From: Owenia fusiformis
Taxonomy: Eukaryota
Assembly: GCA_903813345.2 (NCBI GenBank)
Contig: CAIIXF020000001.1
Coordinates: forward strand, 12,214,001-12,278,000
Length of the DNA stretch: 64,000 nt
Reading direction: 5' to 3'
Below, one piece after another: positions 4,414 through 59,019 of the stretch. How positions within the stretch are numbered: position 1 is the stretch's first letter; each line of letters begins with the position of its first letter. A program made the translations under genes and the position numbers. The notes beneath the pieces are model-generated. The model made no database searches, was not told the DNA's origin, and saw nothing but the letters and a program-made list of their open reading frames with translations.

Positions 4414-4516
4414 GTATGTAGATAATATGTTATATGATGCTCGTAAAACATGTTATGATTATTACTTTATACACTGTACTTTTATACACTGTACATGTTT
4501 TGTCCCTATTACATAT

Positions 4517-16135: not shown

Positions 16136-31699
<15,564 letters not shown>

Positions 31700-35500: not shown

Positions 35501-35869
35501 TAAGCAGAGATAGTAACCTATAAAAACTCCCATAGTTTGATAAATAAGAATTTACATTCAGAAAACAAAACAAAAATATGTCAGTGTTGTTTTAAATGTC
35601 TCAGGTTTCAAGATTAAAGATAAGGAACGATTATTTGGCAGACCATATGTGACTTTGTAATACAGTTTTTCTTGAACATTCACAAAATGATAGAAAATCA
35701 GATAGTTGATGATGAAGAAGGATCATCTTTAAAAACAATGTCATCTTTGTTTATAATACACTAGTCATTTTGTATCATATTTCTAGTAATGTATCCACAC
35801 AATATGTGAATTGATTTGAGATACTAAAAATCTTCAATCCTGAATTTTCATGTCCTATATTGTGCAATG

Positions 35870-37232: not shown

Positions 37233-39467
37233 TAATCAATTTCTAGCAATAGTTGGCTCTAACCTTATTAAGATGGATTAGTATGAGGCTATTCCGAGGC
37301 AGACAGTCTTAATCCACAGTTTAGCTTTATGTGACTAATCACTTTCATTGTGACAAGTCAGCAAAATATATTCAGCAATTTTTAGGGTCATATGATGCTA
37401 CATGATTAAGATATTTAAGGGGGTCCCTTTGGGGATTGTACCAATAGACAAGTAAATAGTATATTTGATAGAAAAATATGATAATTAAAAAACAATTAAA
37501 AAACCCAATAACAGTAAAAAAAATGTCAATAAATGTAACAAAAGTAGAATTCAACCATGGGATATAAAGAGTATTCATCCCATTCTTGCTTATATCTTCT
37601 TCTGAAAATATGTAGATGGGGCAATGACATAATGCATTTTATTTGCACCAGGAAGTATCAAACTCAGAATGAATGAGTTATACAAGTTATACAAACTCCA
37701 TCTTGATCTGAAAAAGTGAAAATTGAAACACCCTAATTTAAGAATCCTGTTCAAGCCTACATTACTTAAGTTGAAAGAAGTAACAGATCATGTCAGTTTA
37801 AACCCTCATCTCTGAAAATTACATTTCGCATTCCCAAGGACTCCAATTAGTTACAATTTTCGATTAACAATTGATATTGTTCCATTCCTGTAACGTTATT
37901 GGCTCATATTGCTTCTCTGTTTGTCCCTATAGTAGTGTGTCCAAGGCCATTTCATACTACACCCTTGTCGCAGGGAATTGAGGCCTTCATTTACAGAGCA
38001 ATAACTTTATATTGCTGTAGTAGAATATTCATTGTATAATTTGTCTGCTTTCATTGATAGTAATATTTTTTATTTGCACGTTTGTGGTTTGATAAACCCA
38101 CATATGACTTATTCATTCATGGTTTTTGTGTTGAAAGGCACAAGTGCCGTGACATCCCGGATTTCTTTATGTATGCTAAGATAATTTGATTTCGAGATAA
38201 TTCTATTGAGGTTGGAGTTTCTTGTTCGGGGTATTTCATTTCACTCAGTTTGGCTGGAAGCTGAATTGCCATAATTTGCTACTTACAGCATATAACTTAC
38301 AGAGTTTAATAAATGACATGGTATTTGGCTTTATCCATTTGTGGAAGCCCAATTGTTATAGGTTACCCAAGTATTCTGACTCTAAGCCAACTGTTCTGAC
38401 TTGATTCAAGTATGTTTGGTTTATTTCATCACATTACTTGATATGCATTCTTACATCACATTTTGTGTTTTTAAACTTTCAATTTTTAGAAAGGAACTGA
38501 TTAACTTCTGTTCTCGTATGATGATATTTTGGTTTTCAGTTGCCAATTGATTTCATATTTCTTCAAATGATGACTGCTGAAATTCATATTATATAAACAC
38601 TTAATAAACATTAATTTATCGTTGGCTCCAGATTCAAAATGTGTCCTATTTTTAGGCATGAGGGGGTGAGATTGTTGGGGGTAGAGTTGTTAAAATTGGG
38701 ATTAATTTTGCCTGCATTATTGAAGCATACGCATGCATGATTGAATAGCACTCATTATTACTAAATGCCAAGACAAGGTCTTGTGATAACATGAGAAATA
38801 TAGTAAAGGAAATACAATTACAATATCGCTAAATAGTAAAAATGTCAGACATGCTTAATATAATAAAAGAGTCTGGTTTAAGTCTGACTAGAATGACATT
38901 TGACGTGCTAGAGCAGTGTTCAGCTGGCCTGTGGTACTATATTAGTCACTTATTGATTCTTTCTATGTTATAAGTCCCACTAGTTCTGTAACATCCACTC
39001 TTGTGCCCAATATATAATGCAATTCATTAACTGCTACAAGTTATTCAATTCATGTTTTAGGTCTGTCCAGTCTCGGACTTTGTGATGGCATGAGGATTTG
39101 TTATTTATGATGTATTTGATAGCAATAGACAACAAGAATTCTCTCGGGTATCCTTCAAGATCGGGCATCACTGCCCCAGCTCATGGAATAAATTGAACCC
39201 TTGGACCAAGGATGCTCTGAGTCTGTTCTTATTGAATAAATTTACTGCTGTTTGATGCATTGTTGGAACAAAATGTTTCGGTTGTTTTCAGACCAATAGG
39301 GACTTAAAGTCAGACTCTTCAGGGGTGTCAGACCATATTTAAAAAAGGGAGTGTGTTTTTCCTAGAAAACTGATTATGTGGCATAAGGCTGTGCATCTGG
39401 GGGATCATGTGCATGCTCCCCTGGGAATTTTTTTTTGAAATATGTTAGACATCATTTGGTGCAATCT

Positions 39468-39606
39468 CAGGGGCGGATCTGGGAACCAACAAGGGGGTGG
39501 GCCCAAATTTCAGATCAGAGAAAAAAACTTCCGCGAAAAAAAATTTGGGCCCCTAAAACCCCAAAGTGGACCCAAATTTTGAAAGACCCCCCTAGATCCG
39601 CCAATG
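39468..39606. mobile_element. MITE with CAGGGGCGGATCT/AGATCCGCCAATG TIRs and 5-bp TSD AATCT, nested in an older repeat
   Basis: AATCT at 39463-39467 and 39607-39611; a degenerate relative lies at ~49116-49270. Confidence 0.75.
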
Positions 39607-39829
39607 AATCTGCATTTTTAAGGACTATAGATAGTTCTTTTCTGATGAAAAACAGCATATTTTGTAGTGTCACAGAAATCTTGTCTCAAATCATTGTCTG
39701 TTAGGTGTTGCTGTTAGGTGTAGTTAAAGGAATATACTCATTTAAAGGTATCACTGTCTTCATATCAATTCTTTGGTTTATAAAGTCAAAAACTACTGTA
39801 ATTATGTCAGTTGTAATACTCAGAGACAT

Positions 39830-40530
39830 AAAAGCAAAGCTCACTGTCATTGTGTCAAGACTAATAGAGAAATATAAGTCAAAGCTCACTGTCATTGTGT
39901 CAAGACTAATAGAGATATGAAAGTCATGTTATTGTGTCAAGACTAATAAAGAAGTACAAGTCAAAGCTCACTGTTATTGTGTCAAGGCTAATAGAGAAAT
40001 ATAAGTCATGTCATTGTTGTGTCAAGACAAATAGAGAAATATAAGTCAAAAATCACTGTCATTGTGTCAAGACTAATAGAGAAATATAGGTCAAAAATCA
40101 CTGTCATTGTGTCAAGACTAATAGAGAAATATAAGTCAAAGCTCACTGTCATTGTGTCAAGACTAATAGAGAAATATAAGTCAAAGCTCACTGTCATTGT
40201 GTCAAGACTAATAGAGAAATATAAGTCAAAGCTCACTGTCATTGTGACAAGGCTAATAGAGAAATACAAGTCAAAGCTCATTGTCATTGTGTCAAGACTA
40301 ATAAAGAAATAAAGGCAAAGCTCACTGTCATTGTGTCAAGGCTAATAGAGAAATATAAGTCTAAGCTCACTGTCATTGTGTTAAGGCTAATGGTTACAAA
40401 GTTGAAGTCCATTGCTATTGTATCAAGGCTTATGGTAACTTCAAGACAACACCCATTATCATTGTGTCAAGACCGATGAATACAACCTCAAGCTCATTGT
40501 CACTGTGTCAATGCTAATGGAGATACAAAG
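39830..40530. repeat. 45-bp minisatellite
   Basis: Unit AAGCTCACTGTCATTGTGTCAAGACTAATAGAGAAATATAAGTCA; gives spurious 15-aa-repeat ORFs. Confidence 0.95.
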
Positions 40531-41659
40531 TTCAACCAAGTTGTTTATTTGCATCTACAATTAGTCAGTTACATATTAAATTATACAGGAAAAATGGAAA
40601 ATGGTTTATAAATACATTGAAATAGCTGGTAAACTTACACCTTACATGATATCGTCCCCTGAGCTTGTGTGCACACCTGGAGTGAAGTGCATCTTTTCAT
40701 TTTCTGTCTCAGCTACCCTCTCTTCCACATCGTGTTTGAGCAGAGTCTCCTGATTAAAGAAAGCACATTGAAGAATAAAATGTTACAAAGAACCCCTTTC
40801 ACTAAACAGCAAAATGGCAAAATGCATTTACTATAAGATGACACGCAGTTATGAACTTAAACATTGGTTCAGGTCAGCTTTCCTGCACATGTATCATATA
40901 TGGCTGCAAATATGACAATAGAGCGTGCTTTAATACAATGGTATGGATTAACAGTATACCAAACATAGCGTTCATACTTTTTGTTGCTCTATTGTTATGT
41001 AAACCATCGCTCATCAAACATGGTAAAGAGTTAGGATGTTGTATCATGAATTAACGAATTTAACTTAAATTTTAGATGAAAACTGTGAAAGCAATAAACA
41101 TGCAAACATTTTGTGTAGATACTCAAATCGTATCTCAGAATCAATTTGAAATGAGAGGAAAACTTTTTGGAAATGTCAGAGATGTACAGACAGCTCGCTC
41201 ATTATTCCCTTTTTGGTCATTTGTAGAGTACCGAATCAGCAATTTCAGGTGTCGACAATGAAGTGATAAACATGGAGTATGAGGGATCATAAATTTCTAA
41301 ATTTTTGTACATCCCCTTATTGAAATCACTCAATATCTTATCCCTTTAAATTTCAATTTGGAAACCACACTGTGCGCTCATTAGAGAGAATACGGTATGT
41401 AAAACCTGTGTAAATGAAACACCTTTGGTACCTCAAAATATTGAGGTGTTCAATTTAAAGAGGTTCATTTTACATTAATGCAATGGGTAGCATGACTTGT
41501 GTTTGAGAGAAAATAAACTGACTCTGTTAGATTTCCTTCTATACTTAATATCACAATACAGAGTATTGTACTGAATGACCATAATGTAGAATTTACTTAC
41601 CTCTACAAAGTTGGCTGTTGAGTTGAGTGCACTGAGTTGAGTTGAGTGTTGAATTGATC

Positions 41660-41738
41660 GTTAGTCACAGCTGGTTGAAGGGGACCAAATGACAATTAAT
41701 ACACAATTTAGCCCATCTTCAACCAACTCCTTTCTAAC
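41660..41738 (-). ncRNA. mir-133: microRNA miR-133 hairpin (mature 3p ~41667-41688; star arm ~41706-41728)
   Basis: Minus strand reads AGTTGGTTGAAGATGGGCTAAAT-TGTG loop-(T)TTGGTCCCCTTCAACCAGCTGT, the canonical miR-133 mature sequence. Basal GTTAG/CTAAC stem, apical UGUG, and CNNC (CAAC) ~16-17 nt downstream. Confidence 0.97.
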
Positions 41739-44700
41739 CTTCTATTATAGTCCTGCATTATTTTAATATCCTGCATATCGCTGCTCCTGCTTTATATCAT
41801 TATTCTCCTGCATTTGTTTTATCCATTTTGTAGTATAATTCATTATCAATTATCATTTCTTCAGATTCAGTTATCATTTCATCAAGGATCATTCTTTATT
41901 CTGAATAATCAGACATGTTCTTCAGGACTGTTGTTTATTTCCTTGCATCATCTGGCATCTTAGTTTCTGTAGCAAACATCTCTGTTTGAGTTGGTTGTGG
42001 GTTTAGTACATTTTGATGAAGAATTTCATGATTTGGTTGCTTCAGTTCATGACGACCTTGAGGGCAGACTGCGTAAGATGGTGCAGACGGGCAGGTATTA
42101 CCCACAGCTAAAATACCATCGTTGTTTTGTTATGAAACTCAAAGTTGTGTGTTAAAGAGTGAAGGAAGCAAGGAATAAAGCAATTGCGATTGATGTTCAT
42201 GTACTAAACCATACAGTAATGTAATTAAATCAGACACTAAGAGAGAAACAAGTAGATATTGAATAGAATCAGCAAAGCTAGAATTGCGTTTTAAGAGTAA
42301 GACTGGGATTCCTCAAATAACTCACCTTAAGTTAACTTTCAAGATATACCTCAACGCATCATCTTAGATCATTCCAAATTATCTCACATTGTTGCTTGTG
42401 GTAGTACTTTCTCCCGTTGTGTAGTGATACTGAGATACGGAAACCTTAAGTTGTTCCTTCGATCTGTAAGTCCAAGTCCCATCTGCTTCCGATTCTTGAA
42501 CATAATGCCCATTGCCTAATAATGAGCCTATTCTTATATATAGATTATTATTATGCAGAGACATTCCAATGGAATTCCCTAGATAATCACATGAGATAAA
42601 TCATATAACATATGTCATATTAGATGTCCACAGAGGCCCACGATTGCCACTACAGATCTGTTGCCATTGATTGCGCGCTACATGGCCATAATACCAGACA
42701 TGACTAATCAATAATCTATTTTCTTGGAAGAAACTACTTGATCAACTTGTTACGCCAAGGTAATTACGAAGTTTAGCGAGACCTCTGTCAAAGCAGTTGT
42801 CGATACAAATTATATTTTCCGTCGCTTACATCTAACAGTGAAGATATTATTTTTCTCAAAGTATTGGTTCCGTTCCATAGATGACACCATTGTAATATAA
42901 ATATTTATTGAAACGCGATCATAATTTCTAGCATGTTATTATGTATTGCATCATAATGTATTTCTGTTTTAGTAATTTGATTAAGATAGATAGTCTTCCA
43001 ATAGAGATTAGAGAATTAGCATTAATCAAGCAAAACGTCACACTTTTTATGAATGAATTTAATGTTTTATATCTCTGATTATACGTGATGCCATTTGATC
43101 CGCAGTTTGTTAATGACTCAAATAAGGATAATATTTTATAAACAATAAAACATTTGAGTGAACATACACAAAAAGTGCATAAAGTTCTTGTTGTATAAAG
43201 TACTTCAAACAGTTGTTAATCATTTCTATAACTGTATAAAATACAGATGAATACAAAAGTTCATCAAATATGTAACAGTGTACCTCTTTGTCATTAGCAG
43301 GACATGGGATAGTCTCACTGGTCATTGGACTAAAGAACACAAGCCAGATGGGGCTCATATACTAAATTAATGGCCTTTGGGATATCTATAGAAATTAACT
43401 GGTCCCTAGTGAACCACCCAAAATTCTTTTCCCAATGTCATATTAATCACTTATTGTCTTTTTTGATATAATAGGTCCAGTCTGAATGTTATGGCGTATA
43501 TGATTCCATTTTTATTAAGCCATCAATTATGGTAATACTAACTGGAATTTGTTATCCATTATGTGAGTCTTGATCGCCCTGAGTTGTTAAATATTTTTAC
43601 TTCCGTCGTGTAATGCTATTCTGCGTTGATTGCCAAGGGGAATTGCGTTGCTTCACATGAACTGCAAAGTAAAAGTTGATGATACAGCATATAACAGGCA
43701 CATGATTATCACTTGAGATCACCTACATCTCATACCCTTGAAGAATTCTTTGGCTGTTTATTTATAATGTTGGCACTGCAAGAATTCACTGCTTAGTGCC
43801 AAATGTCTAATTTAATCAAAGTTATGGCTGTCTGTTTGTTCTTCCTTAATGTCTTATTTCTTTTGAGTGTAATGAGAAAATGATGCAAGAATGTAATGTA
43901 ATTTGACTTCATTCAGTTGAACTGATAAATATATCACACTTCAGTGCCGATTTCATGCCCTTTCACATCAAAATATCAACTGCGTATGCATACACTATAG
44001 AGGGTTACTTCAAGTGTATATACAAAACTCCATGCTAATTCCACTCTTCATCTGCAATATTGGAAACATGCTTTGCCTTTCTATTGACTGACACTGGGTA
44101 GATCCATGCCTTGTACTGATTAATTCCCCAGGTGTTTACCTCTCAGCCAAGAAGCTTGTAAATGATAAGGAGATATGTAAAGAAGTTGGGGAGGTGAAAT
44201 GAATCGCTTTGAATGCCAACTTGTTGCCTTTAATACACAATGTACATGATATGTGCAAAAGATATATGTGGGGTTATAGGGTCATGGATGATTGGCCATT
44301 CACCTATGTGTTTAGAACAAAATTCCTGCAACCTTTTACAAGCTGGCATCTTGATTTCAGTTATTCAAGGTTCCAGTTGCACCAACTTTACCTTTATAAT
44401 TTAAGAATGGATCCACTTTTACTCATTGAGGGATCTTTCAATAGAAACCCCACCAGGGGCCATAAAAGGAGAATATTGGGACACTTTTGATTGGTTTTGT
44501 GAAAATCTTTATGCATTACAGTAACAGGAGAGAAAAATAGGCATTTGCATCCAAGGTATGTTATAACCACCTTGGAAGTCTTAAAATTGAACTAGGGATC
44601 TAGTTCAAAATTATGCTCTTATGATATTTTTCATAATGGCAAAATCTAAAGGTAATTTGTTGTTTTTATCAAATCACCAAGTAACATAACAAAACATTCA

Positions 44701-47682
44701 ATTATACCATTGTTATAATGGTTGGTTGACGTATATTGCTATTTGTGATGTATTCTTATATCAGAGGATTTAATATGGGCTTAATTACCAGGTGAACCTT
44801 CACCCTACCCCATTTTTGGGAAATCATCTCAAATGTTGCCCACCATTCAAGAATCTAATAAGAAAGTAAAAATAACAAATCAAATCACACAAAAGCTAAT
44901 TAGAACCAGCTCTGGTCAGAAAATTGCAAAATTGTGTGGTCATTACATAGTCATTACATCTTTCTATTTCATGGTTGAGAAGAACTGGGATGTCAGGGTT
45001 TATCATGATATAATATACTACTCTATTCTAGAAGAGCAGTTCTTGTAGCACATGCCTGGGGATTATTCAAGGCCTCTAAGCAAGACTATTTGTTGTTATT
45101 TTTAAACACAGTGCTGTAGTAATTTATCACTGTGTCCTTGAATATGGTGATGCATATTGTCCCATTGTCATGAAAAATTGCAAAAATATTTGTAGAATGA
45201 ATGCATAGATTTTATTGATGAAGTTGCTGGTTTATATTGTTGAATTAGATATTTGATTTAGAAAAGGGATCATGCAAAATGTCATGATATCTTGTTACGA
45301 TATCATGTTTATTTATTGCCTTTAATTAATTATTTAATTAATTGACATTTTCCCAAGTTTCCTCTTCTTCAGGATCGTTCAGTTCAGTTTTTAATAGATT
45401 CAATTAATTTTGCAATTAATTCAAACTTTCTGTGCAGGCATATAACAATCAGTCAATAATAATATATATGAAATATGTCATTTATGATAATTCAACTAAA
45501 TGTAGATCATATGCACAATAAAGCCTATGAGGTTGAAACTGATGCGTTGCATGTGCAATCAAGTGTGAATATGATATTGATTCTCAAACGCTTATGTCAA
45601 TGAATGAAGCTTGCAATAATACTGCTACACAAGATTCCGATAAATATGGATTGTTTGTATATGTTTGAGATCGTACTCACATTCCTCTCTCAAACAGGTG
45701 GCTGTCCTCTCCAATTGTGTCCTCAGTGTCCTACCAGTTTGGGGCATCTTCTATCCTTTCCCCAGCATCTTATAGCTCGTAGATATCTCGCTGTTGCCAT
45801 AGAGCCATTGCAATTTGCTTCTTAAATCTGAATATGAAGTACAAGTGGAGTACATATTGACCCAATGTAATGCGATGTATATTGGTGAGCCCAAATCTTT
45901 CTATTTCAGTTGCAATCTCGCCAACGAGGTGCCTATTTTAGCCGTTACTTGAGCTGCCAGGTGAGCGATTGCATAGACATGCTCATATACAACACCAATA
46001 CAAAACATAAGCTAATTACCGATGCAACACCCATACCCACCATCGATGCAACCCTAAATGAAAAATCAATTGGATTTTATTGGAATAATACCAATTTAAC
46101 GGACCAGATGTTCCCAATGCAGCCATAATGACTCAAGTGGCGTTTTTCGACTTTTGACAAAGTGATGTAGAGATTGGGTGCAATGTTTGGTCCCTATGAG
46201 TAAAGATATGCTTGATTGATCTATACCTCATGTTAATGAGTGTTCATTTAGTGCAATGCATGTTATTGAAATCAGGTGGGAATCTCCTATTTAGTTGATA
46301 ACCACATATGATAGGCTTTGCAGGCCATTTTGGCTGGCTTAGGGTTTGGTTTAATCTTCAGCAATAGCTACATACACTAGTATAACTGCATTTCTGTATC
46401 TGCTAGACATTCTTGTCTTACACAACTGACTTGGAAGATTCTCTAGTTTAGATACTGGCTGACATATATGGGCATCCGAACCAAAGGCTGGCCCAATACC
46501 AACTGCATCAGTACCAATATGCCTACATACGCGTAATGCTGTTTTTCTGGTGCAATATTCTCGGAAGCTTCCTTTGAGCGTTGAATGTGAAATGAAGATG
46601 CTACTGCAGCTGGCTGAAAGGATAAGATTATCCATACACCTCTCATAAGCAACTTTATATGGATTTTTCACAGATTTGTATACCAGATCTCACCATTATT
46701 AAAGAATAATGGCTGTTATGTTGCACACATATTTGGGAAAAATTCCTAAATACATTTTCTTGAATATCAAACTGGCATGGCTTGAGCCAAATGGCAATTC
46801 CCAGAATTTAATTCTATAACTTTATCTGCTTCCCATTCACATTCTATAGAGAGGCTCAACAAGAACTTAACATTGAGAAATGCAACTAACCAAAGTATGC
46901 CTTGCTACTTCCACATTAATTTTTTAATTTTATCCAATCCTGAAAAATACCAGGAAATGGTGTAAGGCATGAAAAGAAATCTACTTTTACATAGAAGAAA
47001 TACAGGAAAACAATGATAAAGATAAACAAGTGCAAAATAAATATTCCAAAGAAATGTCTAAAATATAATCATTTAGAGACAAAGGCGTCACAATGACCAG
47101 GAGCACCCTTTTCTGACAATCGGGGTAAACCAGGACTTTTAAGATCACAAAGGTCATATACATTTCATCCTATATTTCCAAAAATAAGAGAAAAAGGCCT
47201 TTTCACATTTCCTTTAATTAACCTATTCTCTTCGTTCCTTGCTTTTTATTTCTTATCTTTTATTCAAAATGAAACTTGTTTGTGGTTAACCTCATGCCAT
47301 GCTATCAGATGAGGCCAGTTAGGATTATTCCCTGTACAGAAGCACTAATGGTTTTTTTGTTAGCAAAGTTGGTGTAGGCCTAGAGACTGTGTAAGTATGA
47401 TAGATTCATTTGGACATCTTTTATTACATATGGCAGATCAGCCACCAAGAGTTGTGTGTTGAATAATATTGCAATTCCCATAGCAACCATTTAACAAATG
47501 TTTGTTTCTATAGAAACCGAGTCCACGTTTTTTTACATATGTTTTATTTGCACCAAATTAGCTTAGCTTCTTGAAGTGTTATATCCTGCTAGTTTTGTTG
47601 GGATCATGACAGAAATTCTCTTTACTCCTTTATCTCCCCCCTCCAAACTAATTTACCCGCTCCCCCTCCTCACTTACTAATG

Positions 47683-48047
47683 ACTCTTGTTTACCCCTCC
47701 TCTCTACCTACCAATACTCTTATTTAACCCCTCCCCACCTACCAATACTCTTGTTTACCCCCTCCCACCTACCAATACTCTTATTTAACCCCTCCCCACC
47801 TACCAATACTCTTGTTTACCCCCTCCACCCTACCAATACTCTTATTTAACCCCTCCCCATCTACCAATACTCTTGTTTACCCCCTCCCACCTACCAATAC
47901 TCTTATTTAACCCCTCCCCACCTACCAATACTCTTGTTTACCCCCTCCCACCTACCAATACTATTGTTTACCCCCTCCCACCTACCAATACTATTGTTTA
48001 CCCCCTCCCACCTATTTATACTCTTGTTTACCCCCTCCCACCTACCA
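47683..48047. repeat. 30-bp C-rich minisatellite
   Basis: Unit TTTACCCCCTCCCACCTACCAATACTCTTG. Confidence 0.93.
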
Positions 48048-49813
48048 CTTAAACACATTTCTTTCTGGTTTGGAAATAAAGCTGAAGAGATTGTCATTCA
48101 AGTAAGTAACTATGTTTACACTTATTGTATTAATTACATATATTCCTGGTTTAAATGCTCAAGTATGAAAATATTTTTTAAATCATATACCATTTTACAG
48201 CAACATCTATTTGATGTCTGATAAGGCTCAACACTATATCTATAAGAGGGGAGTCTAGGTTTTGTTTTAAAAAATCAGTGAACATTGAGTGAGAGTGAAA
48301 GATAATGTAACTTAAATATTCGATGAGAAAACTTTGTAGAAATCAGTAGGAATAGTATCTGGGGCAAGAATTACCCAAGAGAGTATATTTTCGATAGAAA
48401 AACCCATGAAGATTTGATCAGCACTGTGAACACAAAAGTCTTACTTCAAGACCCTGGACTCCCCCTCCCCCTATTTAGACTCCAGGACCATGTTCGACTT
48501 CCAGGGTGATTATAACATCTTGAGAATCAATGTGGTTCAAGGCTAGCTTACACAAGCGCTATGTGGGTTAGTATTATGCAATATGATATTTTAAAGAATA
48601 ATTTTGTCATTTTGTACTCAGGTGCTAATTGAGTGTTGTAGGTTGGTTTTACGTCAGTTAGTAATTGATACCTCATACGTAAATGTATATAACATTTTAA
48701 AATCAGAATGAGCTATTAAGGAATATGCAATCTAAGAATGAATAAAGATATCAAAATCTGTCCAAAATTTTACAATATACATATTGTCTCAGTAAAAAAC
48801 AGTAAAGAAAATATCTAGCTATGAGATCTAATAAAACATAAAGATTTAAAATTGAAATTTAAAAATAAGCATGGAAAATCATAAATTATTTTAACTTCTA
48901 ATACTACACTATACAAATGAATGTAGAATATACTCTTAATTTACATGTAGAGTCATAATAGAAACAGTTAAATAGATAGGGAACATGTTTTGTTGCAATT
49001 TGTAATTGGTTTCCAGTACCATCTATATCCAACTATAGTCTTATCTGATTCCATTTTGAACAGTCCTCTGTGTTACATCAATTTTATGGATCCCTCCCTC
49101 TTATCTAGTTCACCCCAGGGGGTGGATCTCGTAGTCAAGCAGAGGGGGACCAAAAAGGTTCTGGACGTTAGCGGAAAAATTTTGGGGCACAAACAGGCCC
49201 AAAATCATAATATTGTTTTGGGCCTCGATTTTTTTAGGGTCTACCAAAGTGGAGGTGGATCCCTAGTCCACAAAGCCTTGAAGTAAGACTATGTTACCAC
49301 CACAAGTGGTGACATATTGATATAGTCTCCAAACTTTTTGTGGACAGTGTTTGGCAGTTGGTTTTTGGCAGTCGGCATCGAGATGGGTGGTAGGCATCTG
49401 TAACAAATGGCAGCTGGTGATATTTTGCAGTGTTTAAGACTTATGTTTCGCCCAATAAACTTAAATTAAAAGTTTTACTTACATTATATGTATGAAATAC
49501 CTGTAAATGAGTTATAATCTGACTCTAATGCTCAGTGTACGTTCACTACCATTTCTAAATTATGCTTGGGGTCATCCTTCTTCAAAGGACCTCATTTATG
49601 CTATATACTTGTAAAATACCCTTGCAGCAAGGATGGCTGGGGGTCAGGGCCTTATACATTAGGAAAGACGCAAAATCAAACTATTGAAAAATGTAGTATT
49701 AATCCTTACTGTCATTCGTTTATTTGCAAAGATTCAAAACATACATGAGATTCTACAAGGATAATTACTCTTCTGACATTTTTGAATATGATTCAGTAAT
49801 TCTAGAATTCAAC

Positions 49814-50500
49814 TGTCAAAATCATTATTTATCAAATTGTCTCCTAATTTTGAGAATGTTGACATAATAACAGTCTAAACTCACAAATTACTAATTGTAA
49901 ATTTTACAAACACTCCTCTGAATGCATAAGGAGTATCCTTTCTATTGTTTAATTTTGCTTCTTTAAAAGAGAGTTTCGTCTACTCTGCTTTTACACTCAG
50001 TGTATATAAGGATAATATGACTCATTTTTATGTCACTACCACAAGTGGTGACATATTGTTAGAGTGTCCAACTTTTCTGTGGCAGTGGCTGGTGTTTGGC
50101 AGTTGGTGTTTGGTGGTTAAAGAGAACTGTGAAAAGGAGAATTGTCAGAATCATTATTTATTTATCAGATTGTCTCCTCATTTTGACAATATTGACATAA
50201 CAACAGTCTAAACTCACAAATTACTTATGGTAATTTTACAAGTACAAACACTACTCTGAATGCATAAGGAGTAACCTTTCTTTAAAAGAGAGTTTCGTCT
50301 ACTCTGCTTTTACAGTCAGTGTATTTAAGGGAAATTTGACCCATTTGTATGTCACTACCACAAGTGGTGACATATTGTTAGTCTCAAACCTTTTTGTGGT
50401 GGCGGTCAGTGGTTGGTGTTTTCCATTCGGCAGTTGGTGTTTGGCGGTTGATGTTTGGTGGCTGTAACATATGGCAGGTAGTGACATTTTGCATGCTTGC
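49814..50500. repeat. ~325-bp local tandem duplication including a short HINE-A copy
   Basis: 49814-50120 and 50143-50430 share ...ACAGTCTAAACTCACAAATTAC...CTGAATGCATAAGGAGTA...TATGTCACTACCACAAGTGGTGACATATTG. Confidence 0.85.
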
Positions 50501-53500
50501 CTCTGGACTGCATATATCCTACCCTGTATACTTCACAAGGCATTGGAAGTACTATGGCAAGACATCTTTAGTCCAAGGGTATTTCACTTCTTTCCTGAAT
50601 TTAAGCATAAATGAAGTCCTCTGAAGAAGGATGATTTCAAGATTATGTATTGTGTTTCTTTATTCCTAATTGTTGTTTTTGTTGTTTATTTCTGTCATTT
50701 TATCATGTGCTTTCTCGATCTCATGGATTCTAGATCTCACCATCTTTCTAAATCTCACAGTCTTTCTAGATCTCTGAAAGCTCCATGATTTTATCTTCAA
50801 TAAGTAAATGAAAAAGTTTCCGTCTATAAATGTAATATTGAGTGTGTCATCAAAAAGAGCAGTAGACAATATTCAAATTGTAATATCTAAGACAGTGTAG
50901 GGATATTAGCTTTCTTTCCAACAATGGGACATTTAATTTTGATAATAACGTAGTATTTTAAAGCTATAAAGATGACAACTGTAACAGTAGGTTTGTATTT
51001 AGGTGGAACCTCAATAATAAAAATAAACAGAACTTAAAATGTGTATTGATTATATAATGAGAGAACGGGGCGGGGGGGGAAATAAAGATGAGCATGCCAT
51101 TGAGTGCTTACATAATCTAAAAGGGATACTTAGACATACATTTTACATTGACAGTTGAATCTGTCTGATTTGAATACCACTGAAGTTGAAGCTCTCTTTC
51201 AATATGTCGAATGAATGCAAAGCGAAATACTGGATTAGGTGATCAAGTTTTCAAAATATTTTATCGAGTCAAAGATTTTAATATGGGTGTGGTGTATTGA
51301 GATGGGTGTATTGGTCAAGTAGGATAGGATTTATTTTGACAGGAAAAACTGGAAAAGCATTGAAACATACATAGCACTTGGGACATCCTTTACTGTATTG
51401 TCAAAATCTGTTTGAGTAAAAAGAAAGGCCAGCTTTTGAAGTGATAAAGCTACCAAGAGTAAATCAAATCAGAGATTAGTGTTAGATTGTTAGAATGTGT
51501 CTGTTCATTTGAAGGGACTTGTATAACATGGGGACCAGCCAAGATTTGATAGATAGGTCTTTGATTTGTCCAATATTGGTTTAATTTGCCTCAGAGTGAC
51601 AGAAGTTCTGTAGTAAAGTCTATCTCTTGTAATTAGCCAATTTCATATGGAATGATTTCCTGTCACTCAAGCATAGTATCATTTTTGTGATGTGATTTTC
51701 CATTACAAATAAAGCTAATGGTTGAAAATCACATGTGCAATCTCTGTAACATTTCTCTGCATCTTTCGATGATACCCATAAGGCCCTAGGTGATCTTATA
51801 TGAGGGGATTTATATGTAGATATGAAATAGTCTTATGTAGGGTAAGCGTTTCTGGTGAAGTGGAAGATAAAGTAAGCAAGAACGCCAGAAGCCTCCCAAG
51901 CAATAGACGGCCATGCCTTATATGGGCAAGGTGAAAGGTCGAGTTTTTACATCAGTAGTTAAGAGGGGCCAAATCAGCAGTTATATTCTCCTCATATCCT
52001 ATATATTTTATATAACGTTATATGGGCTTTTGGAGTATTTTGGAGATGCCCCATTATGTGGGCTGTTCCTGTTTGGCTTGAGTTGTGCCTGTTAGACTGA
52101 AATGTTGAATGAAATACTAGAAAGGAATGAAATATTTTGGTGACTGTCTAAGGAAGGGTCATGCCAACATGAAGTATAACCCAATTTTATATGCTATATA
52201 AAAACTTCAATATATAATTAGCATCAATATGTAAGTTCATATCGTATATAATTATGTAGGTCAATGTGAGACACATATAATTGTTTGTATATTGAACTTT
52301 TGTAGATTGAACTTAAAAGTAATATGACTTGTTTCTCTGGACTGTGAACTTTGAAACATTCATGCGGTTTTGTCTTAGATTATCACAAACATTGTTTTTT
52401 GTGCTTTTTGTATTTATATTGTGTTACATTCATTTTAAACACCCTCTGTACAATATAAGAGATTTGTGATAAGCTTTGACATAACACAAATGGATTCTTT
52501 CAGAATCCCAATGTCTCAGCTGCTGATGAAGTCATATTTCATATTCAACAATTCACTTTACATATATAGCTCATAATTTGGGGGCAGTTAGGATGGTAAA
52601 TGATCTATTTTGGAAAACTTAATAAAAAGATATATTCATTAGATGATACATGTGTAATCTTGATAATATATCATCAAAGATGAATTGGGTCGGATTCAGC
52701 TTGCCAGAATGACATGGAATGAAAATGGGGTCATGTCTGGGGATAAATTGGAATATTTAAGTTTGGAGATTTCATGAATATAAAACAAGATAGAGTGGCA
52801 CAAGATATTGTATTCATCAAGTCAATGTATTGATTGGAAAATCAAAATTAACATGAAGAAATGCTTTGATTTGCAGCAGAACAGAAATGCCTCAAGTTGT
52901 AGGATAATAAAATTACAATCCAATTGGCACTTATGTCATACTACCATCAGCTATTGCTTAGTACAAGTAAAGTGATGTGATTTAGAAAATATTTGATCAA
53001 ATTTTTGATGAGTTATGCATTCTGAAAAGGGAGAACTTTTGATTTAAAATGTCAAACTCTGAAGAAAATAAACTGCCGAAATGGTACCTACTTTTTAGGT
53101 AGGGTTGATTTTCAATTCCAGGAAATTTTGATAGAATAGTGAAGTAACAGAGTAATGAGTAATCTTATTACAATTACTGGTACTTGTACGAGGCTCATAG
53201 CTGACTGAAATAGAGAGAACTCTCGAAATGAAATCAACTAAATCAAATTTATGATAAAATCACTAGTCATTTTATTGACCCTGTATTATTGCATAGGAAA
53301 TACATTTACTACACGATCGCTTTGACTCTTGCTCAATCGTATCAGAATAATGATATATCAGATTGAAGATATGTTACAAAGTAGATGCTATTGTTCCAGT
53401 TATTTACAAGTACACGTAATTAACATGGTTGATTTTAATTAGGAGTACAAGGCTATGTTTGAGAAGCTGTTACCAGTCACACACATATCTCAAAGTGACA

Positions 53501-53909
53501 TGTGTTAACAAATATATCCAAACTTAAACATTATGTTTATCATACAACATTCTTGGAACTAACTGTTTACAGCTTCTAAAATCAATTTTAATATAAACAC
53601 CGGAACAATTTGTTTATTTCTTTAAACTAACTCTGTGAATAATTTAAAACATATTTCCAAGCATTTTGAAATTAGAATATTCAAATTGACAATTTCGTAA
53701 TAAGTAAGAAATTAGTTTTAGATGTGACAAAGATGTTAAATACATATTGGCAATTTTATGCCACGTGGCTTTTATGCTAATGGTAGTATAATGTTCATTA
53801 TGCCACAAACTCACCATATCACTTCCATTTCATAGAACTCAATTCTTCCTGATTTCCACAATTTCCATAATTGTCTCAGTGCAGCAGATATTTGCCTTAA
53901 TGTAGCCAT

Positions 53910-53993
53910 AGCACTTAAATGCTACATACTTCTTTACATTCCATACATCAGTCTTAGATATGGGCTATAAGGAAGTATGTCACACTCAAAAGC
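53910..53993 (-). ncRNA. mir-1: microRNA miR-1 hairpin (mature 3p 53922-53943; star arm 53959-53980)
   Basis: Minus strand reads ACATACTTCCTTATAGCCCATA-loop-TGGAATGTAAAGAAGTATGTAG, the canonical miR-1 mature sequence. It has a complementary star arm, a 2-nt 3' overhang, an extended basal stem and a CNNC (CTAC) 17 nt downstream. Confidence 0.97.
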
Positions 53994-54859
53994 TTGCAAA
54001 TAAATCTCATCTTGAGAAATCACCGAAGCTAAGACTGCACTGAATGATGTAGATTTTCGAATAAGTTGTGTACAATTCCAACCAATTCTAGAATCCAGCA
54101 TGAAGGATTGAATGCCCTTCATCAGTGTCAGGTTACCCCAATGTGGTGTTATATTTAGCACTAAGGCACTAATCCAGGCTGAATCACTAACTTCAGCCTC
54201 TCATCCAGTCAGGTTTCCTCCAAAGATATATATCCAACTCCAAATGTTCGGTTATATATATAGTGAAAGTAGTACATCATGGGAAATTATCACTTGATGA
54301 CTGTGTGAGAACCCCTCCTGAAAATATACCATTCATAGTGTAATTAGCACTGACTATGTGTGAAGCAATAATACCATTATCGAAATCTACAACTTTAAAT
54401 TATTTCTAGCTCTAAAGATCCATCATGTCATACATAATCAATGAATGATATAACAATCTGCCATCATGGACCTATAAAAGTTTCAGAAAAGTTTACGAAT
54501 TAGTATTTCAAACTTCCACAAAGATTTCTGAGTTTCTGCACTGTCGGCCATATTGGTTTCTCCAGGCCATAGCTCGCTGGTGAAAAGATATTGATTTCTT
54601 TGCCATTCCTTACTACAATTTGGTAATATCACTCTAGAATTCTTTATTCCCCTGATATACTCACTGTTCTATTGTATGATTACAGTAGCGATCTCCTAAG
54701 ATTGAGACTTAGTGTATCAGTGTAGTGTAGTCTCAGCCCCTTACATGTGTATGTGTGTGTGGTTCTCCTCTTGCATGGCTAACATCTGAGTAGTGCCTCA
54801 ACTCTAGTGCAGTAAACTATGAGATAAGTTCAAGTGGCACATTCCAAGATACTGGCAGC

Positions 54860-55230
54860 ACTGTGTATGTGTATGGTCTACCAGGCTTCTAGCTTTTATA
54901 GCAAGAACTGTCAACTGATAGCCCCCTGTGTTGTATCAGTAGATATGGCGGGAACATTGCCCCACTAATCCTTACCAGACCCAGTGTGAATGAAACCCAA
55001 CCTCTGAGTTAGGGGCGGAGTTTGGATCAACTAGGATATCTTCACACCTATAAGGCCTGTTTCCTGCCTTCTTATCCTTATATGGCATAGCGCCCATTAC
55101 CAGACTAGAATCTAAGTCCCTCCCACCAGCGCCTGGTAACCTGTTGCCATGGCAACCTGACCTTTTGCTCAGGAGCTGTTTCTATGAGATATTTATAGTT
55201 TAGGGTTTGTAGTAGAGCTGATAAGTGAAG
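54860..55230 (-). promoter_or_regulatory. Candidate promoter of the miR-1/133 host
   Basis: TATAAAAG on minus (54900-54893), GC box GGGGCGGAGT (55012-55021), GATAAG (55071-55076, minus) abutting CArG CCTTATATGG (55076-55085), palindromic X-box GTTGCCATGGCAAC (55143-55156), further GATA near 55220. Lies ~0.9 kb upstream of miR-1 in the correct orientation. Confidence 0.6.
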
Positions 55231-58200
55231 TAAGCCTAACAGTAACAGACTCTCTTAGAACTTCTGATCAATGCCTTACAGTTCTAGCTGTAAAATAAAC
55301 TCTACGATGATTGATTTAGTATTTTATCATTCCTACACTATACACATTTATTTTTGTTTGTAACCACTCCCTCTAACCCAAAAAGGATTAAATAGATTAA
55401 GGCTGTGTTTTATTTCAGAATCCAAACAGTTTGAGGAACTTCTTTACTAAAATGAAATGATGAAAGTATTTGGTGAGGACTGAGCGAGACTCTAGAATAG
55501 TCTGAGATATCCCCCTCCCTTTGTATTCCATCATGTCTCTCTTGTTATTGTGAGCATTTGTGCTTTCATCCATAAATCCTCTTTGGGATGGCAGAGTAGA
55601 CACCCAACCTTCCGGTTGCAAGAGGGGCATGTTTTCACAGGTTTAGAGGATAGAAAAAATGCAAAACATCACTATTACACAATTATAATCACTTTTACAA
55701 ATACCAACGTCCATGTGGGGACTCAACTGTCATTACAGTGCCCATAAAATGTATTTGTTTATTGTGAATCGTGAAAGTGATTGGTAAGATAATTGATGCA
55801 AGAGGGGGAAGAACCTATACAAACAGGTATAATGCCCTCAATTTAATGATTGACAATTGAATATCTCTTTATTAAAATGTTTGTTTTTCTTCTTATTCTA
55901 GGGTATGTGAACATATGACGATAATTTTGTATTTTGTGATCTCCCAGGGATTTTTTCTAAGTGGGGGAGGCATTCATTCCTTGCCTCTCTCACAGGGTTA
56001 ACAATTGTTTAAAAACATCTTGATGTCCAATTAGCTTTATTAGCTCGCATAGGTGAGATATTGTTATCGCCCGCTTGTCTTCACATAGGTGAGCTATTGT
56101 TATCGCCCACTCCTCTTGTTTTTTGTGTATTATAACTACGTGATGTTCTTGGAGTATTTAGCTAACCATGGGATGAGAGTCCGGAGGGACAACTGGTACT
56201 TGGAGACACTGGGATGGTGGTTGAAATCAGGGGATTGTTTTCTTTTAGCCAAAAATTCTGTTATTGTCACTTCATTGCCCTTTCTTTTTTGTTCCTTTGC
56301 CATTTTTGATTAATTTGAGAATTTTTTTTTGATTTTTGAAATGACCAGCATGATCATTTAGAACTAGAAGTGGGACTGCTTAATTATATTCAAGACATTT
56401 ATAGATGTTTTGCAAAATGTTCAACTTTCATGAATAGAAAATGAAACCTCAGGATTGTGAAACAGTGTGACATTCTTTTTCTTATTATATTTAGGCAGTA
56501 ACATTATAAAACAGAATAATGAACATGTACTTTACATGTTTTGGCAATTAAATCTTAAATAAAATAGAATTCAGAAAATATTTCAAAAGATGTATGAATT
56601 AACATCATCAGGAATGTATTATCAAGGTGGTATATCATACATGTTATTCCAAATTAAGATTATATGATTTATTAACTTAATTAATTAAATTAGAATACTA
56701 TGTAATGACATGAAACATCCTGAAGTTGATATGTGTGAACTTTCATCATTATGATTAATATGTCATTCATAAATATTCATATTTCCTGCATCAGTTGCTC
56801 AACATTATAATTCCTGATCTACAAAAATAACAAGAATAGTTCAAAGACTCTGAAATAATTAATTATAAATATATAAAGAGACTGGTTTGTTTCTTTTAGC
56901 TGTCAAGAATAAGTGGCCTTGTTTGTAAAAATATTATTTTGCACCTCATAACCGAGATTATCAAGTTCTCAATGTTCAATAATCATTCCATACAAAGTCC
57001 ATTTTAGTAGTAAAAACATGTGTTAATAAATGTTGCTTGCATGTGAAAGTGATGTCACAATGAAGTAGCCTTGGTAATATATCCCATTGTCTCCTTAAGG
57101 AGAAGGTGCTCATCAAGATTGGGTCTCACCTAAGAGCAAGGCACTAACTAGAGTCTAAACAGAAACCATTTGAAAGATGTGCAGAAAATGTGTTAATTTG
57201 ATTGATGTTCAAATGAAATTATTATCAAAATGGAAATTAGTCTTTAAAATAACTACATGTATTAACTTAAGTTATATGCAGATATTGTGTTAAATGCTGT
57301 TAATTGAAAATTAATTTGACTTATTAAGAAATGTTTTGTTTCGATAGATTGGGTATATACCAAACCCTTGTACATTTCTTTAGAATGCTATGTATACATA
57401 TGTCAAGATTATAAAAAATTCTATCACACTCCCATTTATTTGGGAAATTTTGATGTAATCTGAAACTGATTGGAGTCTTTATTCAAATAGAGTATCTGAC
57501 TACAAATTCAGATTATCCATTTTGATATTTGGGCATTTCATGGATGTATCACATCTCTATCATGGTACCTAAATTCATGAATCAGAATTTTATCAGCACT
57601 GGTTAATGAGAATGTGGGATTTATAGGGTTAACAGGCTAACAGTAGCTTTGGCCAAGATAGCAGAACTACTGGTGGCATTGGGCCTAATCTTTTACCATT
57701 TTACCAGTCTAACATATGTTTCCCATCATGGAACAGGCCTTTCATTAACATAATCCAAAATATCAGCTTTCTCCTGCATAAATTAAACTCTCAGAGATTG
57801 GTGGAGCTACAAGAGAAACAAGAGCCAATAGAATCAACAATATTAGAGATATTTATCTTTAGACTGCCCTTCCTTCCAAGTAGACTAAATATAGAACATA
57901 GGTATACTTTCCCCCTCCCTCAGATCTATATCCCAAAAGGGATATCTCTACATTGGGCAGGAATTGCAATGTTCAAAACAAAAACAAGCAGCAGGTTTTA
58001 TATTAATGATGGTCTCATAGCAAATCAATGCCCTGAACTATATCTGAATTCCTGATTTTTGAATACTAAATTGTGATGAATTGAATATTTAAGATTTTAT
58101 AAGTAAAACAATGTTAATAAAAGTCAATACATGTGCTTTAGATATTATAGCCCATTTTCATAGAAATTCATCTATAATTCATTTCAGTAAGCCTTGGGAT

Positions 58201-59019
58201 AATTTGATAAATGATTTTTGACTACACTTTACGATATATATTTCTAATAAATCAAATTTTCCAGTTATATATTATGAATACAATGTCTACCATGGCCTCA
58301 TAGAAGCAATGAGAACAGGGAAAATAATGTATATGTAGTTTCTTTCTAGTTTGTACTTTGAGTGTATCTTCCCATTGTAATAATTGATTTTGACTTTTCC
58401 CAAAATCAATAATTTTGAGCAAGAGAGAAGTTTATTTGATCTATTGTTCCAATTTCCAGCTTATTAAGAAGATATAATATAATATTTTTACTGACTGTAT
58501 ATAATGTAAAAGCCTTTCTAGATATGGCTTTCAGTTTGAATATTTTTAGAATAAAAGAAAACTAGGCTCACATCAAGCCCCTATGCCTATGTCCCCCAAT
58601 TATTCTGTAGAAATAGATGGGGGCACAAGAGAATAAATGCAAGAATGGTATAACACTAAATGTCCTTTTTTACAATGGCATATCTATTATACAGTTCTAA
58701 TATATTAGTCTATAGTCAGATATATTTACTTTAAGTTTGTTGTTGTTTCAGATAGATGAAGTACAAGTCCATCATGCACATTAGTATAAATGTTGTATTT
58801 TTATACCAAACTCGGTATCCAGCAAATTTAATACCTAATGTTAATAGTTATCATATTTGCCAGTAAAACATGCCTGACTTCTTCATTGATATGCTGCATA
58901 TAATCCCTTGTTTAGCTACCTCATAAATATCCTGTTCATAATATAGACTGTATTCTGCCAAAATCAGTTATTGCTTTTGGCTTTCACTGGCTTAATAATC
59001 TGCCTAACAAACAAAAGCA

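What the first reader, a model, noticed from the sequence alone, without database searches (positions are those of the whole stretch)
41660..53993. miR-1/miR-133 muscle cluster antisense inside a giant MIB1 intron
Seen: canonical mature miR-1 and miR-133 in good hairpins on the minus strand, in miR-1 then miR-133 order about 12 kb apart. Both lie in the intron after the MIB1 exon ending ...HHAALRGNP(S), phase 2. Established: vertebrate miR-1-2/miR-133a-1 lie antisense in a MIB1 intron, and this linkage has been reported in some invertebrates. Inference: this is the orthologous intron, so the nested arrangement is an ancient bilaterian one retained here. An ORF-based annotation would miss it entirely.
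Basis: partly seen in the sequence, partly recalled or inferred. Interest (0 to 1): 0.85.

Follow-up and report, generated by a model that had tools for sequence, protein, structure and literature searches.

The report
Muscle microRNAs nested in MIB1 intron
Two genuine muscle microRNA genes (miR-1 and miR-133) sit backwards inside a very large intron of the MIB1 gene of an annelid worm, which is a real but already well-documented ancient animal gene arrangement.

Summary
The mir-1 hairpin lies at 53915-53989 on the minus strand (Rfam 60.4 bits, cutoff 45.6). The mir-133 hairpin lies at 41662-41732 on the minus strand (46.6 bits, below the 55.5 cutoff, E 9.5e-8). Both fold well and are 12.2 kb apart in the order miR-1 then miR-133.

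Thirteen GT-AG exons on the plus strand (16136-31699) translate exactly to residues 1-625 of a 1004-aa Owenia fusiformis MIB1 protein. The last exon ends ...HHAALRGNP plus AG, intron phase 2. No further MIB1 exon occurs up to 64 kb, so both hairpins lie antisense in an intron of at least 32.3 kb.

The same exon end, followed by an antisense mir-133, occurs in three unrelated metagenome contigs. The arrangement is in print for vertebrates and insects (2008) and sea urchins (2024), and MirGeneDB 3.0 covers Owenia.

Two things were not shown: small-RNA expression, and whether this 13th intron is positionally the human "intron 12". Verdict: real, interpretation supported, novelty low.

The parts
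53915..53989 (-). mir-1 precursor hairpin
   Evidence: Rfam RF00103 at 60.4 bits against a gathering score of 45.6, E 3.3e-10. Fold -33.2 kcal/mol, z -4.95.
53922..53943 (-). miR-1 3p (mature) arm, 22 nt
   Evidence: Located by seed; 18 of 22 nt are paired. It matches the conserved 3' arm of the Rfam consensus (alignment). A CNNC motif lies at +17 downstream.
53959..53980 (-). miR-1 5p (star) arm, inferred from a 2-nt overhang geometry
   Evidence: This is an inference from the fold, with no read support.
41662..41732 (-). mir-133 precursor hairpin
   Evidence: Rfam RF00446 at 46.6 bits (below the gathering score of 55.5), E 9.5e-8 in a 32-kb search. Fold -33.8 kcal/mol, z -3.51. It is the only part of the intron that resembles the 43 metagenome loci.
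41667..41688 (-). miR-133 3p (mature) arm, 22 nt
   Evidence: 20 of 22 nt are paired. A CNNC motif lies at +16 and UGUG at the start of the loop. The overlapping 23-mer occurs exactly in 43 metagenome contigs.
41706..41728 (-). miR-133 5p (star) arm, inferred
   Evidence: In one search, 62-68-nt alignments at 76-82% identity to about 20 loci span both arms.
16136..31193 (+). MIB1 coding exons 1-12: 16136-16382, 21794-21965, 22313-22457, 23043-23132, 23435-23501, 23883-24016, 24720-24796, 27765-27960, 28241-28388, 29392-29534, 29911-30018, 30996-31193
   Evidence: All introns are GT-AG. The concatenated exons translate exactly to residues 1-575 of P0002. P0002 is annotated as an Owenia fusiformis product with MIB_HERC2, ZZ, ankyrin and RING Pfam domains.
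31548..31699 (+). MIB1 exon 13 (152 nt, ankyrin repeats; ends ...HHAALRGNP + AG)
   Evidence: The best specific PDB match is the MIB1 ankyrin domain 8v0e_A, residues 151-201 of the chain.
31700..64000 (+). MIB1 intron 13 (phase 2, donor GTAAGT), at least 32,301 nt and running off the window; it hosts both hairpins antisense
   Evidence: Introns 1-12 are 280-5,411 nt. Ten intronic ORFs have no Pfam hit. [quoted passage not shown]
55076..55085 (.). CArG-like box (CCWWWWWWGG) 1.1 kb upstream of mir-1; a candidate SRF site and only a lead
   Evidence: The window total of 7 matches the chance expectation of 6.6. Five of the 7 lie between 44.4 and 55.1 kb, but that is a post hoc observation.
54149..54158 (.). 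MEF2-like site (YTAWWWWTAR) 160 nt upstream of mir-1; only a lead
   Evidence: 23 sites in the window against 20 expected by chance.

Best explanation
This is the orthologous miR-1/miR-133 muscle microRNA pair of the annelid Owenia fusiformis. It lies on the strand opposite to MIB1, inside the giant phase-2 intron that follows the exon ending ...HHAALRGNP. That is the 13th coding intron here.

Shown: both hairpins, their strand and order, the host exons, the intron phase, and the absence of any other exon or Pfam-recognisable gene in the 32 kb of intron visible.

Inferred from the antisense orientation: the microRNAs cannot be co-transcribed with MIB1, so they are made from their own minus-strand promoter(s) starting above 54 kb.

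Inferred from knowledge of the families: the transcript is cut by Drosha/DGCR8 at the hairpin bases. CNNC motifs at +16/+17 and UGU/GUG in the loops fit this. Dicer then processes the precursors and the 3p arms are loaded into Argonaute to repress targets in muscle.

Whether one 12-kb polycistronic primary transcript or two separate units are used is not shown; I favour one transcript at about 55:30. The nest is an ancestral bilaterian microsynteny retained in this annelid.
For: Hairpins: Rfam and folding support both.

Host gene: the exon model translates exactly to residues 1-625 of P0002. Exon 1 is 100% identical to P0002. No match to residues 626-1004 occurs in the window.

Intron position:
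- 23 of the 93 MIB1 gene models that contain the RGNP exon (of 120 listed) end or diverge exactly at this boundary. 17 of them carry the read-through R expected for AG|GT. They come from molluscs, a brachiopod, an annelid, arthropods and a sturgeon (the count was hand-corrected for SAMK/SAMW continuations).
- Vertebrate models share boundaries 1, 2, 9, 11, 12 and 13.
- Human c.1677 (Gln559) behaves as a last exon base (PMC12547740 passage). This corresponds to the boundary just upstream.

Independent loci: of 43 metagenome contigs holding the exact miR-133 23-mer, 3 also hold MIB1 exons at E<=1e-4. In all 3 the exon ends RGN[P/S]+AG|GT and mir-133 lies downstream on the opposite strand.
- L003: 5.4 kb away, 61.4 bits.
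- L043: 0.8 kb away, 61.2 bits.
- L021: 7.3 kb away, with mir-1 just beyond it.

Literature (passages read): PMC2500172, PMC11076791, PMC13276959, PMC3292888, PMC3777988. PMC11701709 states that Owenia fusiformis was added to MirGeneDB 3.0.
Against: - No expression evidence. Three poly(A) RNA-seq runs, sampled at about 6-12%, gave essentially no reads on either hairpin. The only depth outside a high-copy repeat was about 0.5-1.6x in bin 41164-41827. Nearly all laid reads fitted only in part (567 of 571 in X10), so I do not count it.
- mir-133 scores below Rfam's gathering threshold.
- The exon downstream of the intron is not in the window, so 'intronic' rests on the annotated protein P0002.
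- The intron is the 13th here but the 12th in the human and insect literature, and I could not see the human exon table.
- 40 of the 43 metagenome loci show no MIB1 exon. Most are short, so this is uninformative rather than contrary.
- MEF2 and CArG motif counts are at chance level.
Confidence: 0.88

Rival explanations
1. The two microRNAs are separate transcription units, each with its own promoter, rather than one polycistronic primary transcript. They would then be syntenic neighbours and not a true cluster. This rival concerns the mechanism only, not the identity of the genes.
For: They are 12.2 kb apart. The flatworm study (PMC4405270, passage read) judged pairs more than 10 kb apart unlikely to be a single unit. 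Four of the 7 CArG-like boxes lie between the two hairpins. The only faint RNA-seq depth is next to mir-133 and none is near mir-1 (weak).
Against: Human miR-1-1/miR-133a-2 are 10.5 kb apart and are still treated as a cluster (PMC3292888). PMC12257675 uses a 50-kb window and calls Mir-1/Mir-133 an ancestral cluster. No ORF with a Pfam hit lies between them. The strand and order match the compact pair in L021.
Confidence: 0.3
2. The hairpins are intergenic rather than intronic. On this reading the MIB1 model P0002 wrongly fuses two genes, or MIB1 transcripts end after exon 13 and the 3' half is a separate gene.
For: The downstream exon is not in the window. Annotations in other animals do split MIB1 here: 23 of 93 models, and two 'Mib1' genes in S. 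purpuratus (PMC11076791). In silkworm the pair was placed between MIB1 and another gene (PMC2500172).
Against: Exon 13 ends in the middle of a codon and of an ankyrin repeat at a consensus GTAAGT donor. 70 of 93 models continue SAM[RKW]... directly after RGNP. RT-PCR in sea urchin bridged the equivalent gap (PMC11076791). The RING domains needed for ligase activity are encoded only in the missing part (Pfam list of P0002).
Confidence: 0.05
3. The hairpins are unexpressed or decaying copies, and the working miR-1 and miR-133 genes of this species lie elsewhere.
For: No RNA reads lie on them. The whole genome is not held, so other copies could not be sought. mir-133 scores below the Rfam gathering threshold.
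Against: Both arms, the stems and the CNNC and UGU processing motifs are intact. The 3p arms match the family consensus without change. Five of 12 scanned metagenome loci with the exact 23-mer also fall below the gathering score, so a sub-threshold score is common among real-looking loci. The position is the conserved one.
Confidence: 0.04

Closest known systems
Human and mouse MIR1-2 / MIR133A1 (host transcript MIR133A1HG), antisense in the twelfth intron of MIB1
   Same: Same host gene, opposite strand and the same two families. The human pair is described as lying on the complementary strand of a MIB1 intron (PMC3292888, PMC13276959, PMC3777988; passages read). In the mouse knockout, host gene expression is independent of the microRNAs (PMC3777988).
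   Different: Spacing is 3.2 kb in human against 12.2 kb here. Vertebrates have two further paralogous clusters.
Sea urchin SpmiR-1/miR-133 in a Mib1 intron of about 142 kb (PMC11076791, 2024)
   Same: [quoted passage not shown] The same splitting appears in 23 of 93 models.
   Different: That work concerns a deuterostome, and cDNA PCR bridged the intron. No such experiment exists here. The paper does not state the exon end.
Insect miR-1/miR-133 pair (honey bee and Tribolium in 'intron12' of MIB1; silkworm between MIB1 and CG30492) (PMC2500172, 2008)
   Same: A protostome case of the pair on the antisense strand of MIB1.
   Different: The insect data are described as unpublished in that paper, and the silkworm draft placed the pair outside the gene.
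Flatworm miR-1 and miR-133 near Mind bomb genes (PMC4405270, 2015)
   Same: A lophotrochozoan-side linkage of the microRNAs to Mind bomb genes, with more than 10 kb between the two microRNAs.
   Different: In flatworms the two microRNAs sit near different Mind bomb genes with putative genes between them, and the authors did not accept them as a cluster. Here both lie in one intron with no recognisable gene between them.
Unnamed metagenome contigs L003, L021 and L043
   Same: The exon ends RGN[P/S]+AG|GT, mir-133 lies downstream on the opposite strand, and mir-133 is nearer to that exon than mir-1.
   Different: The distance from exon to mir-133 is 0.8-7.3 kb against 10 kb here. In L021 the two hairpins are only about 70 nt apart. 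In L043 the exon is split by an extra intron. The downstream MIB1 exon was not on any of these loci.

Membership tests
mir-1 (Rfam RF00103) | Covariance-model score at or above the curated gathering score | tested here: met
   60.4 bits against 45.6, covering the full model 1-79.
mir-1 (Rfam RF00103) | Conserved 3p arm in a stable hairpin | tested here: met
   The 3' arm matches the upper-case consensus positions in the alignment. Fold z is -4.95 and 18 of 22 nt are paired.
mir-1 (Rfam RF00103) | Small-RNA reads with uniform 5' ends from both arms and 2-nt offsets (the MirGeneDB-type criterion, recalled) | not testable with these tools
   Only poly(A) RNA-seq raw reads were offered, and no reads lay on the hairpin.
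mir-133 (Rfam RF00446) | Covariance-model score at or above the curated gathering score | tested here: not met
   46.6 bits against 55.5. E is still 9.5e-8 in a 32-kb search. The shortfall comes from the basal stem and the loop. Five of 12 other loci with the exact mature 23-mer are also below the cutoff.
mir-133 (Rfam RF00446) | Conserved 3p arm in a stable hairpin | tested here: met
   The 3' arm is identical to the consensus in the alignment. Fold z is -3.51. The exact 23-mer occurs in 43 metagenome contigs, with both arms alignable to about 20 of them.
MIB1 (E3 ubiquitin ligase mind bomb 1) | Domain order MIB/HERC2 - ZZ - MIB/HERC2 - REP - ankyrin - RING | tested here: met
   The window exons equal residues 1-625 of P0002. 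Precomputed Pfam for P0002 lists PF06701, PF00569, PF18346, ankyrin families and PF13920. The RING part is outside the window. PDB 8v0e_A (MIB1) is the best specific hit for exon 13.
Antisense miR-1/miR-133 nest in a MIB1 intron | Both hairpins on the strand opposite to MIB1, between two MIB1 exons | tested here: inconclusive
   The opposite strand and the upstream exon are shown. The downstream exon lies beyond 64 kb and is inferred from P0002.
Antisense miR-1/miR-133 nest in a MIB1 intron | Same intron position as in vertebrates (human intron 12) | tested here: inconclusive
   The boundary after RGNP is shared with a sturgeon model and with many protostomes and with 3 contigs that carry mir-133. 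However, the intron is number 13 here, and no call gave the human exon number for this boundary.

The most novel reading that the evidence does not exclude
Several features have been kept from annelids to vertebrates: the same phase-2 intron after ...RGNP, the same opposite-strand orientation, and the same order with mir-133 nearest the upstream exon. The intron is also repeatedly the largest in the gene. This may reflect functional coupling rather than inertia. For example, convergent transcription of the muscle pri-miRNA through the MIB1 intron could dampen or re-route MIB1 (Notch/Wnt ligase) expression in differentiating muscle. Alternatively, a shared regulatory domain might be impossible to break. 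The frequent RefSeq isoforms that terminate just after this exon could be a readout of such interference.
Probability: 0.15. Interest if true: 0.55.

Novelty: new member of a known kind. Interest (0 to 1): 0.25.

Why it matters
It adds an early-branching annelid to the animals known to keep miR-1/miR-133 antisense in a MIB1 intron, which is one of the oldest known microRNA-host gene associations. It also pins the host intron to a precise codon position: phase 2, after RGNP in the sixth ankyrin repeat. That position can be checked in any genome.

There is a practical lesson. This giant intron breaks MIB1 gene models in many genomes (23 of 93 models here). A truncated 'MIB1-like' protein of about 610-640 aa ending ...RGNP(R) should therefore be read as an annotation artefact, with miR-133/miR-1 expected just downstream on the other strand.

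For specialists it is confirmation and not a surprise.

Tried and rejected
- Whole-genome search for other copies: no genome is held for this window.
- Earlier scan notes: nothing found by place, words or sequence.
- RNA evidence: no RNA holder was listed. Laying three poly(A) RNA-seq runs and one contig run on 40500-60400 gave reads almost only on a high-copy repeat at 49.1-51.1 kb. There were none on mir-1 and only a faint, partly fitting signal in bin 41164-41827. I draw no conclusion on expression. Run X1 covers the whole stretch at a depth of about 5-80 and behaves like DNA.
- Human exon numbering of the RGNP boundary: searches for c.1829/c.1830 splice variants, for R530X plus exon and for NM_020774, with passages from six papers, gave no exon number. 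They gave only c.1677 as a last exon base. Supplementary tables, which are closed, may hold the number.
- Fetching the rest of contigs L003, L021 and L043 to find the downstream MIB1 exon: these records are not held. A relaxed tblastn with residues 626-800 found only ankyrin cross-matches.
- Other microRNAs or RNA families in the intron: none at E<=0.05.
- Protein-coding content of the intron: 10 of 10 ORFs have no Pfam hit.
- MEF2 and CArG site enrichment in the window: not above chance (23 against 20.0 expected, and 7 against 6.6).
- Conserved non-coding blocks outside the hairpin between this intron and the 43 loci: none.
- Literature search for 'mindbomb' plus synteny: 0 papers. My searches found no paper describing the nest in an annelid. 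That is not proof that none exists.
Full report
**1. Observation**

Rfam's covariance models find mir-1 at 53915-53989 on the minus strand at 60.4 bits. The gathering score is 45.6 and E is 3.3e-10 for the whole window. The plus-strand reading of the same palindromic hairpin scores lower, at 49.5 bits.

mir-133 is found at 41662-41732 on the minus strand at 46.6 bits, below its gathering score of 55.5. It is still highly significant: E 1.8e-9 in a 601-nt search and 9.5e-8 in a 32.3-kb search. The plus strand scores only 28.2 bits.

Both stretches fold into long hairpins that no dinucleotide shuffle equals: -33.2 kcal/mol at z -4.95, and -33.8 kcal/mol at z -3.51, with 0 of 200 shuffles each.

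The anatomy was computed from window coordinates:
- miR-1: 3p arm 53943..53922, 5p arm 53980..53959, 15-nt loop.
- miR-133: 3p arm 41688..41667, 5p arm 41728..41706, 17-nt loop.
- Each hairpin has a CNNC motif 16-17 nt downstream of the 3p end and UGU/GUG in the loop. From recalled literature, these are features of efficient Microprocessor substrates.

The hairpins are 12,183 nt apart, and on the minus strand miR-1 comes first.

**2. Host gene and organism**

The translation of the first MIB1 exon is 100% identical to protein P0002, a 1004-aa 'unnamed protein product [Owenia fusiformis]'. Its domain set is MIB/HERC2, ZZ, ankyrin and RING.

A splice-aware reconstruction gives 13 GT-AG exons between 16136 and 31699 on the plus strand. 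Their concatenation translates exactly to residues 1-625 of P0002.

Exon 13 (31548-31699) ends ...AAC CCG AG|GTAAGT.

Residues 626-1004 of P0002 have no match in the window, even with word size 2 and E up to 10. The only hits are ankyrin cross-matches onto exons 10-13.

The intron after exon 13 is therefore at least 32,301 nt long. Introns 1-12 measure 280-5,411 nt, and the longest of them is inflated by a LINE insertion.

Inside the visible intron:
- Ten of ten ORFs have no Pfam hit.
- Rfam finds nothing but the two microRNAs at E up to 0.05.
- There are several tandem arrays.

That the microRNAs are intronic, rather than lying beyond the end of the gene, rests on P0002 continuing past RGNP. 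The downstream exon is outside the window.

**3. Is it the conserved intron?**

Four lines of evidence bear on this.

(a) Gene models. Of the 120 best MIB1 relatives listed, 93 contain the RGNP exon.
- 70 continue directly with SAM[R/K/W]...
- 23 stop or diverge exactly at that point.
- 17 of the 23 carry the read-through arginine expected from AG|GT (I corrected the script's count by hand for the SAMK/SAMW continuations).
- The 23 come from bivalves, a gastropod, a brachiopod, an annelid, chelicerates, crustaceans, many insects and a sturgeon.
- So the boundary is widely shared and often breaks gene prediction, as expected for a very long intron.

(b) Vertebrate models.
- A sturgeon isoform lacks exactly the 66 residues of Owenia exon 12.
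- A primate model stops at boundary 11.
- A deer model deviates between boundaries 1 and 2.
- Another sturgeon model ends at RGNPS.
- A human variant at c.1677 (Gln559), which corresponds to Owenia Q575, disturbs splicing (PMC12547740, passage read). This fits c.1677 being the last base of the exon before exon 13's homologue.

(c) Independent loci.
- Scanning metagenome contigs for the exact 23-mer of miR-133 gave 43 loci. Three of them also carry MIB1 exons at E<=1e-4; the other 40, mostly short, do not.
- In all three the exon homologous to exon 13 ends RGN[P/S]+AG|GT.
- In all three mir-133 lies downstream on the opposite strand. L003 is 5.4 kb away and L043 0.8 kb, both at or above the Rfam gathering score. 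L021 is 7.3 kb away, with mir-1 about 70 nt further on; both L021 hairpins are below the gathering score but significant.
- The orientation, and the order with mir-133 nearest the upstream exon, are the same as in the window.

(d) Literature (passages read).
- A 2026 paper places MIR133A1HG antisense in the twelfth intron of human MIB1 (PMC13276959).
- A 2024 sea urchin paper shows miR-1 and miR-133 nested in a Mib1 intron of about 142 kb. The intron is annotated in some echinoderms as a gap between two 'Mib1' genes and was bridged by RT-PCR (PMC11076791).
- Flatworm miR-1 and miR-133 lie near Mind bomb genes (PMC4405270).

One loose end remains. The intron is the 13th here and the 12th in human. 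I could not obtain the human exon number of the RGNP boundary, and the supplements are closed. Either human lacks one of the upstream introns, which I judge about 85% likely, or the human pair sits one intron upstream.

**4. Mechanism**

Because the hairpins are antisense to MIB1, they cannot be processed from the MIB1 pre-mRNA. They need their own minus-strand promoter(s) above 54 kb.

[quoted passage not shown] In vertebrates and flies they are driven by SRF, MEF2, MyoD or Twist.

In the window, MEF2-like and CArG-like motifs are no more frequent than chance: 23 against 20.0 expected, and 7 against 6.6. A MEF2-like site lies 160 nt upstream of mir-1 and a CArG-like box 1.1 kb upstream. Five of the 7 CArG-like boxes fall between 44.4 and 55.1 kb. 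That is a post hoc observation and only a lead.

Whether one primary transcript spans both hairpins is open.
- For a single transcript: human miR-1-1/133a-2 are 10.5 kb apart (PMC3292888), and the pair is called an ancestral cluster (PMC12257675).
- Against: the flatworm authors rejected units more than 10 kb apart.

**5. Expression**

No small-RNA data could be reached. Three poly(A) RNA-seq runs of the same species label, sampled at about 6-12%, put reads almost only on a high-copy repeat at 49.1-51.1 kb. There were none on mir-1. Only a faint, partly fitting depth appeared in the bin that contains mir-133. This says nothing either way.

MirGeneDB 3.0 reports adding Owenia fusiformis (PMC11701709). 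The two genes are therefore very probably already curated there with read support, but I could not see the entries.

**6. Comparison and verdict**

The nearest known cases are:
- the vertebrate MIR1-2/MIR133A1 pair in MIB1;
- the sea urchin and insect nests;
- the flatworm linkage.

This locus matches them in host gene, strand and families. It differs in spacing (12.2 kb), in intron number (13) and in phylum.

My searches found no paper describing the nest in an annelid. I therefore file it as a new member of a known kind.

- the exact codon position and phase of the host intron;
- its recurrence in three unnamed contigs;
- the finding that about a quarter of MIB1 gene models break at this intron.

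A specialist would not be surprised. Interest is 0.25.

Noticed in passing
window 17191-21304 (+): A LINE-type retrotransposon sits in the sense orientation inside MIB1 intron 1. ORF pieces carry an endonuclease-reverse transcriptase domain (18420-20033, PF14529, E 1.3e-16) and a reverse transcriptase domain (20021-20926, PF00078, E 4.4e-32). The reading frame is broken into at least four pieces.
   Followed up: partly
window about 4500-14600 (-): A minus-strand gene upstream of MIB1, arranged head to head with it, belongs to the Noc2p family (ORF 6428-6709, PF03715, E 6.8e-18). Acidic exons such as 13239-13607 fit a NOC2L-like protein. The shared 1.5-kb spacer (about 14.6-16.1 kb) may be a bidirectional promoter.
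   Followed up: partly
window 49132-51123: A high-copy dispersed repeat. Word depth in the DNA-like run X1 is 1,100-4,100 against about 5-80 elsewhere. It carries almost all the RNA-seq reads laid on the stretch, with many rearranged joints.
   Followed up: no
window 36014-37233, 39822-40391, 47662-48047, 59025-59458: Four sizeable tandem arrays lie inside the giant intron, with periods of 82, 45, 30/61 and 30/60 nt and 6-15 copies. They create long spurious ORFs on both strands.
   Followed up: partly
window 2378-3253 (+): A 291-aa open frame with hydrophobic stretches and many cysteines has no Pfam hit. It may be a single-exon lineage-specific membrane protein or may be chance.
   Followed up: no
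L021 9922-10194 (-); also L024: In two metagenome contigs the mir-133 and mir-1 hairpins are only about 70 nt apart, forming a very compact bicistronic pair. In L021 the pair is still antisense downstream of the MIB1 RGNP exon. I recall, but did not check, that a compact miR-1/miR-133 unit has been described in ascidians.
   Followed up: partly
window 54444-55107: The bin just upstream of mir-1 on the minus strand has the highest non-repeat word depth in run X1, 77.8 against about 5-40 in neighbouring bins. If that run is an accessibility or ChIP-type library, this could mark the pri-miRNA promoter. The bin contains the CArG-like box at 55076. The measure is poor and the run type is unknown.
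   Followed up: no
L043 2065-2356 (-): In this divergent contig (about 50% MIB1 identity) the exon homologous to exon 13 is split by an extra intron after ...TNNNG. It still ends at RGNS+AG|GT, and mir-133 is only 0.8 kb downstream.
   Followed up: yes
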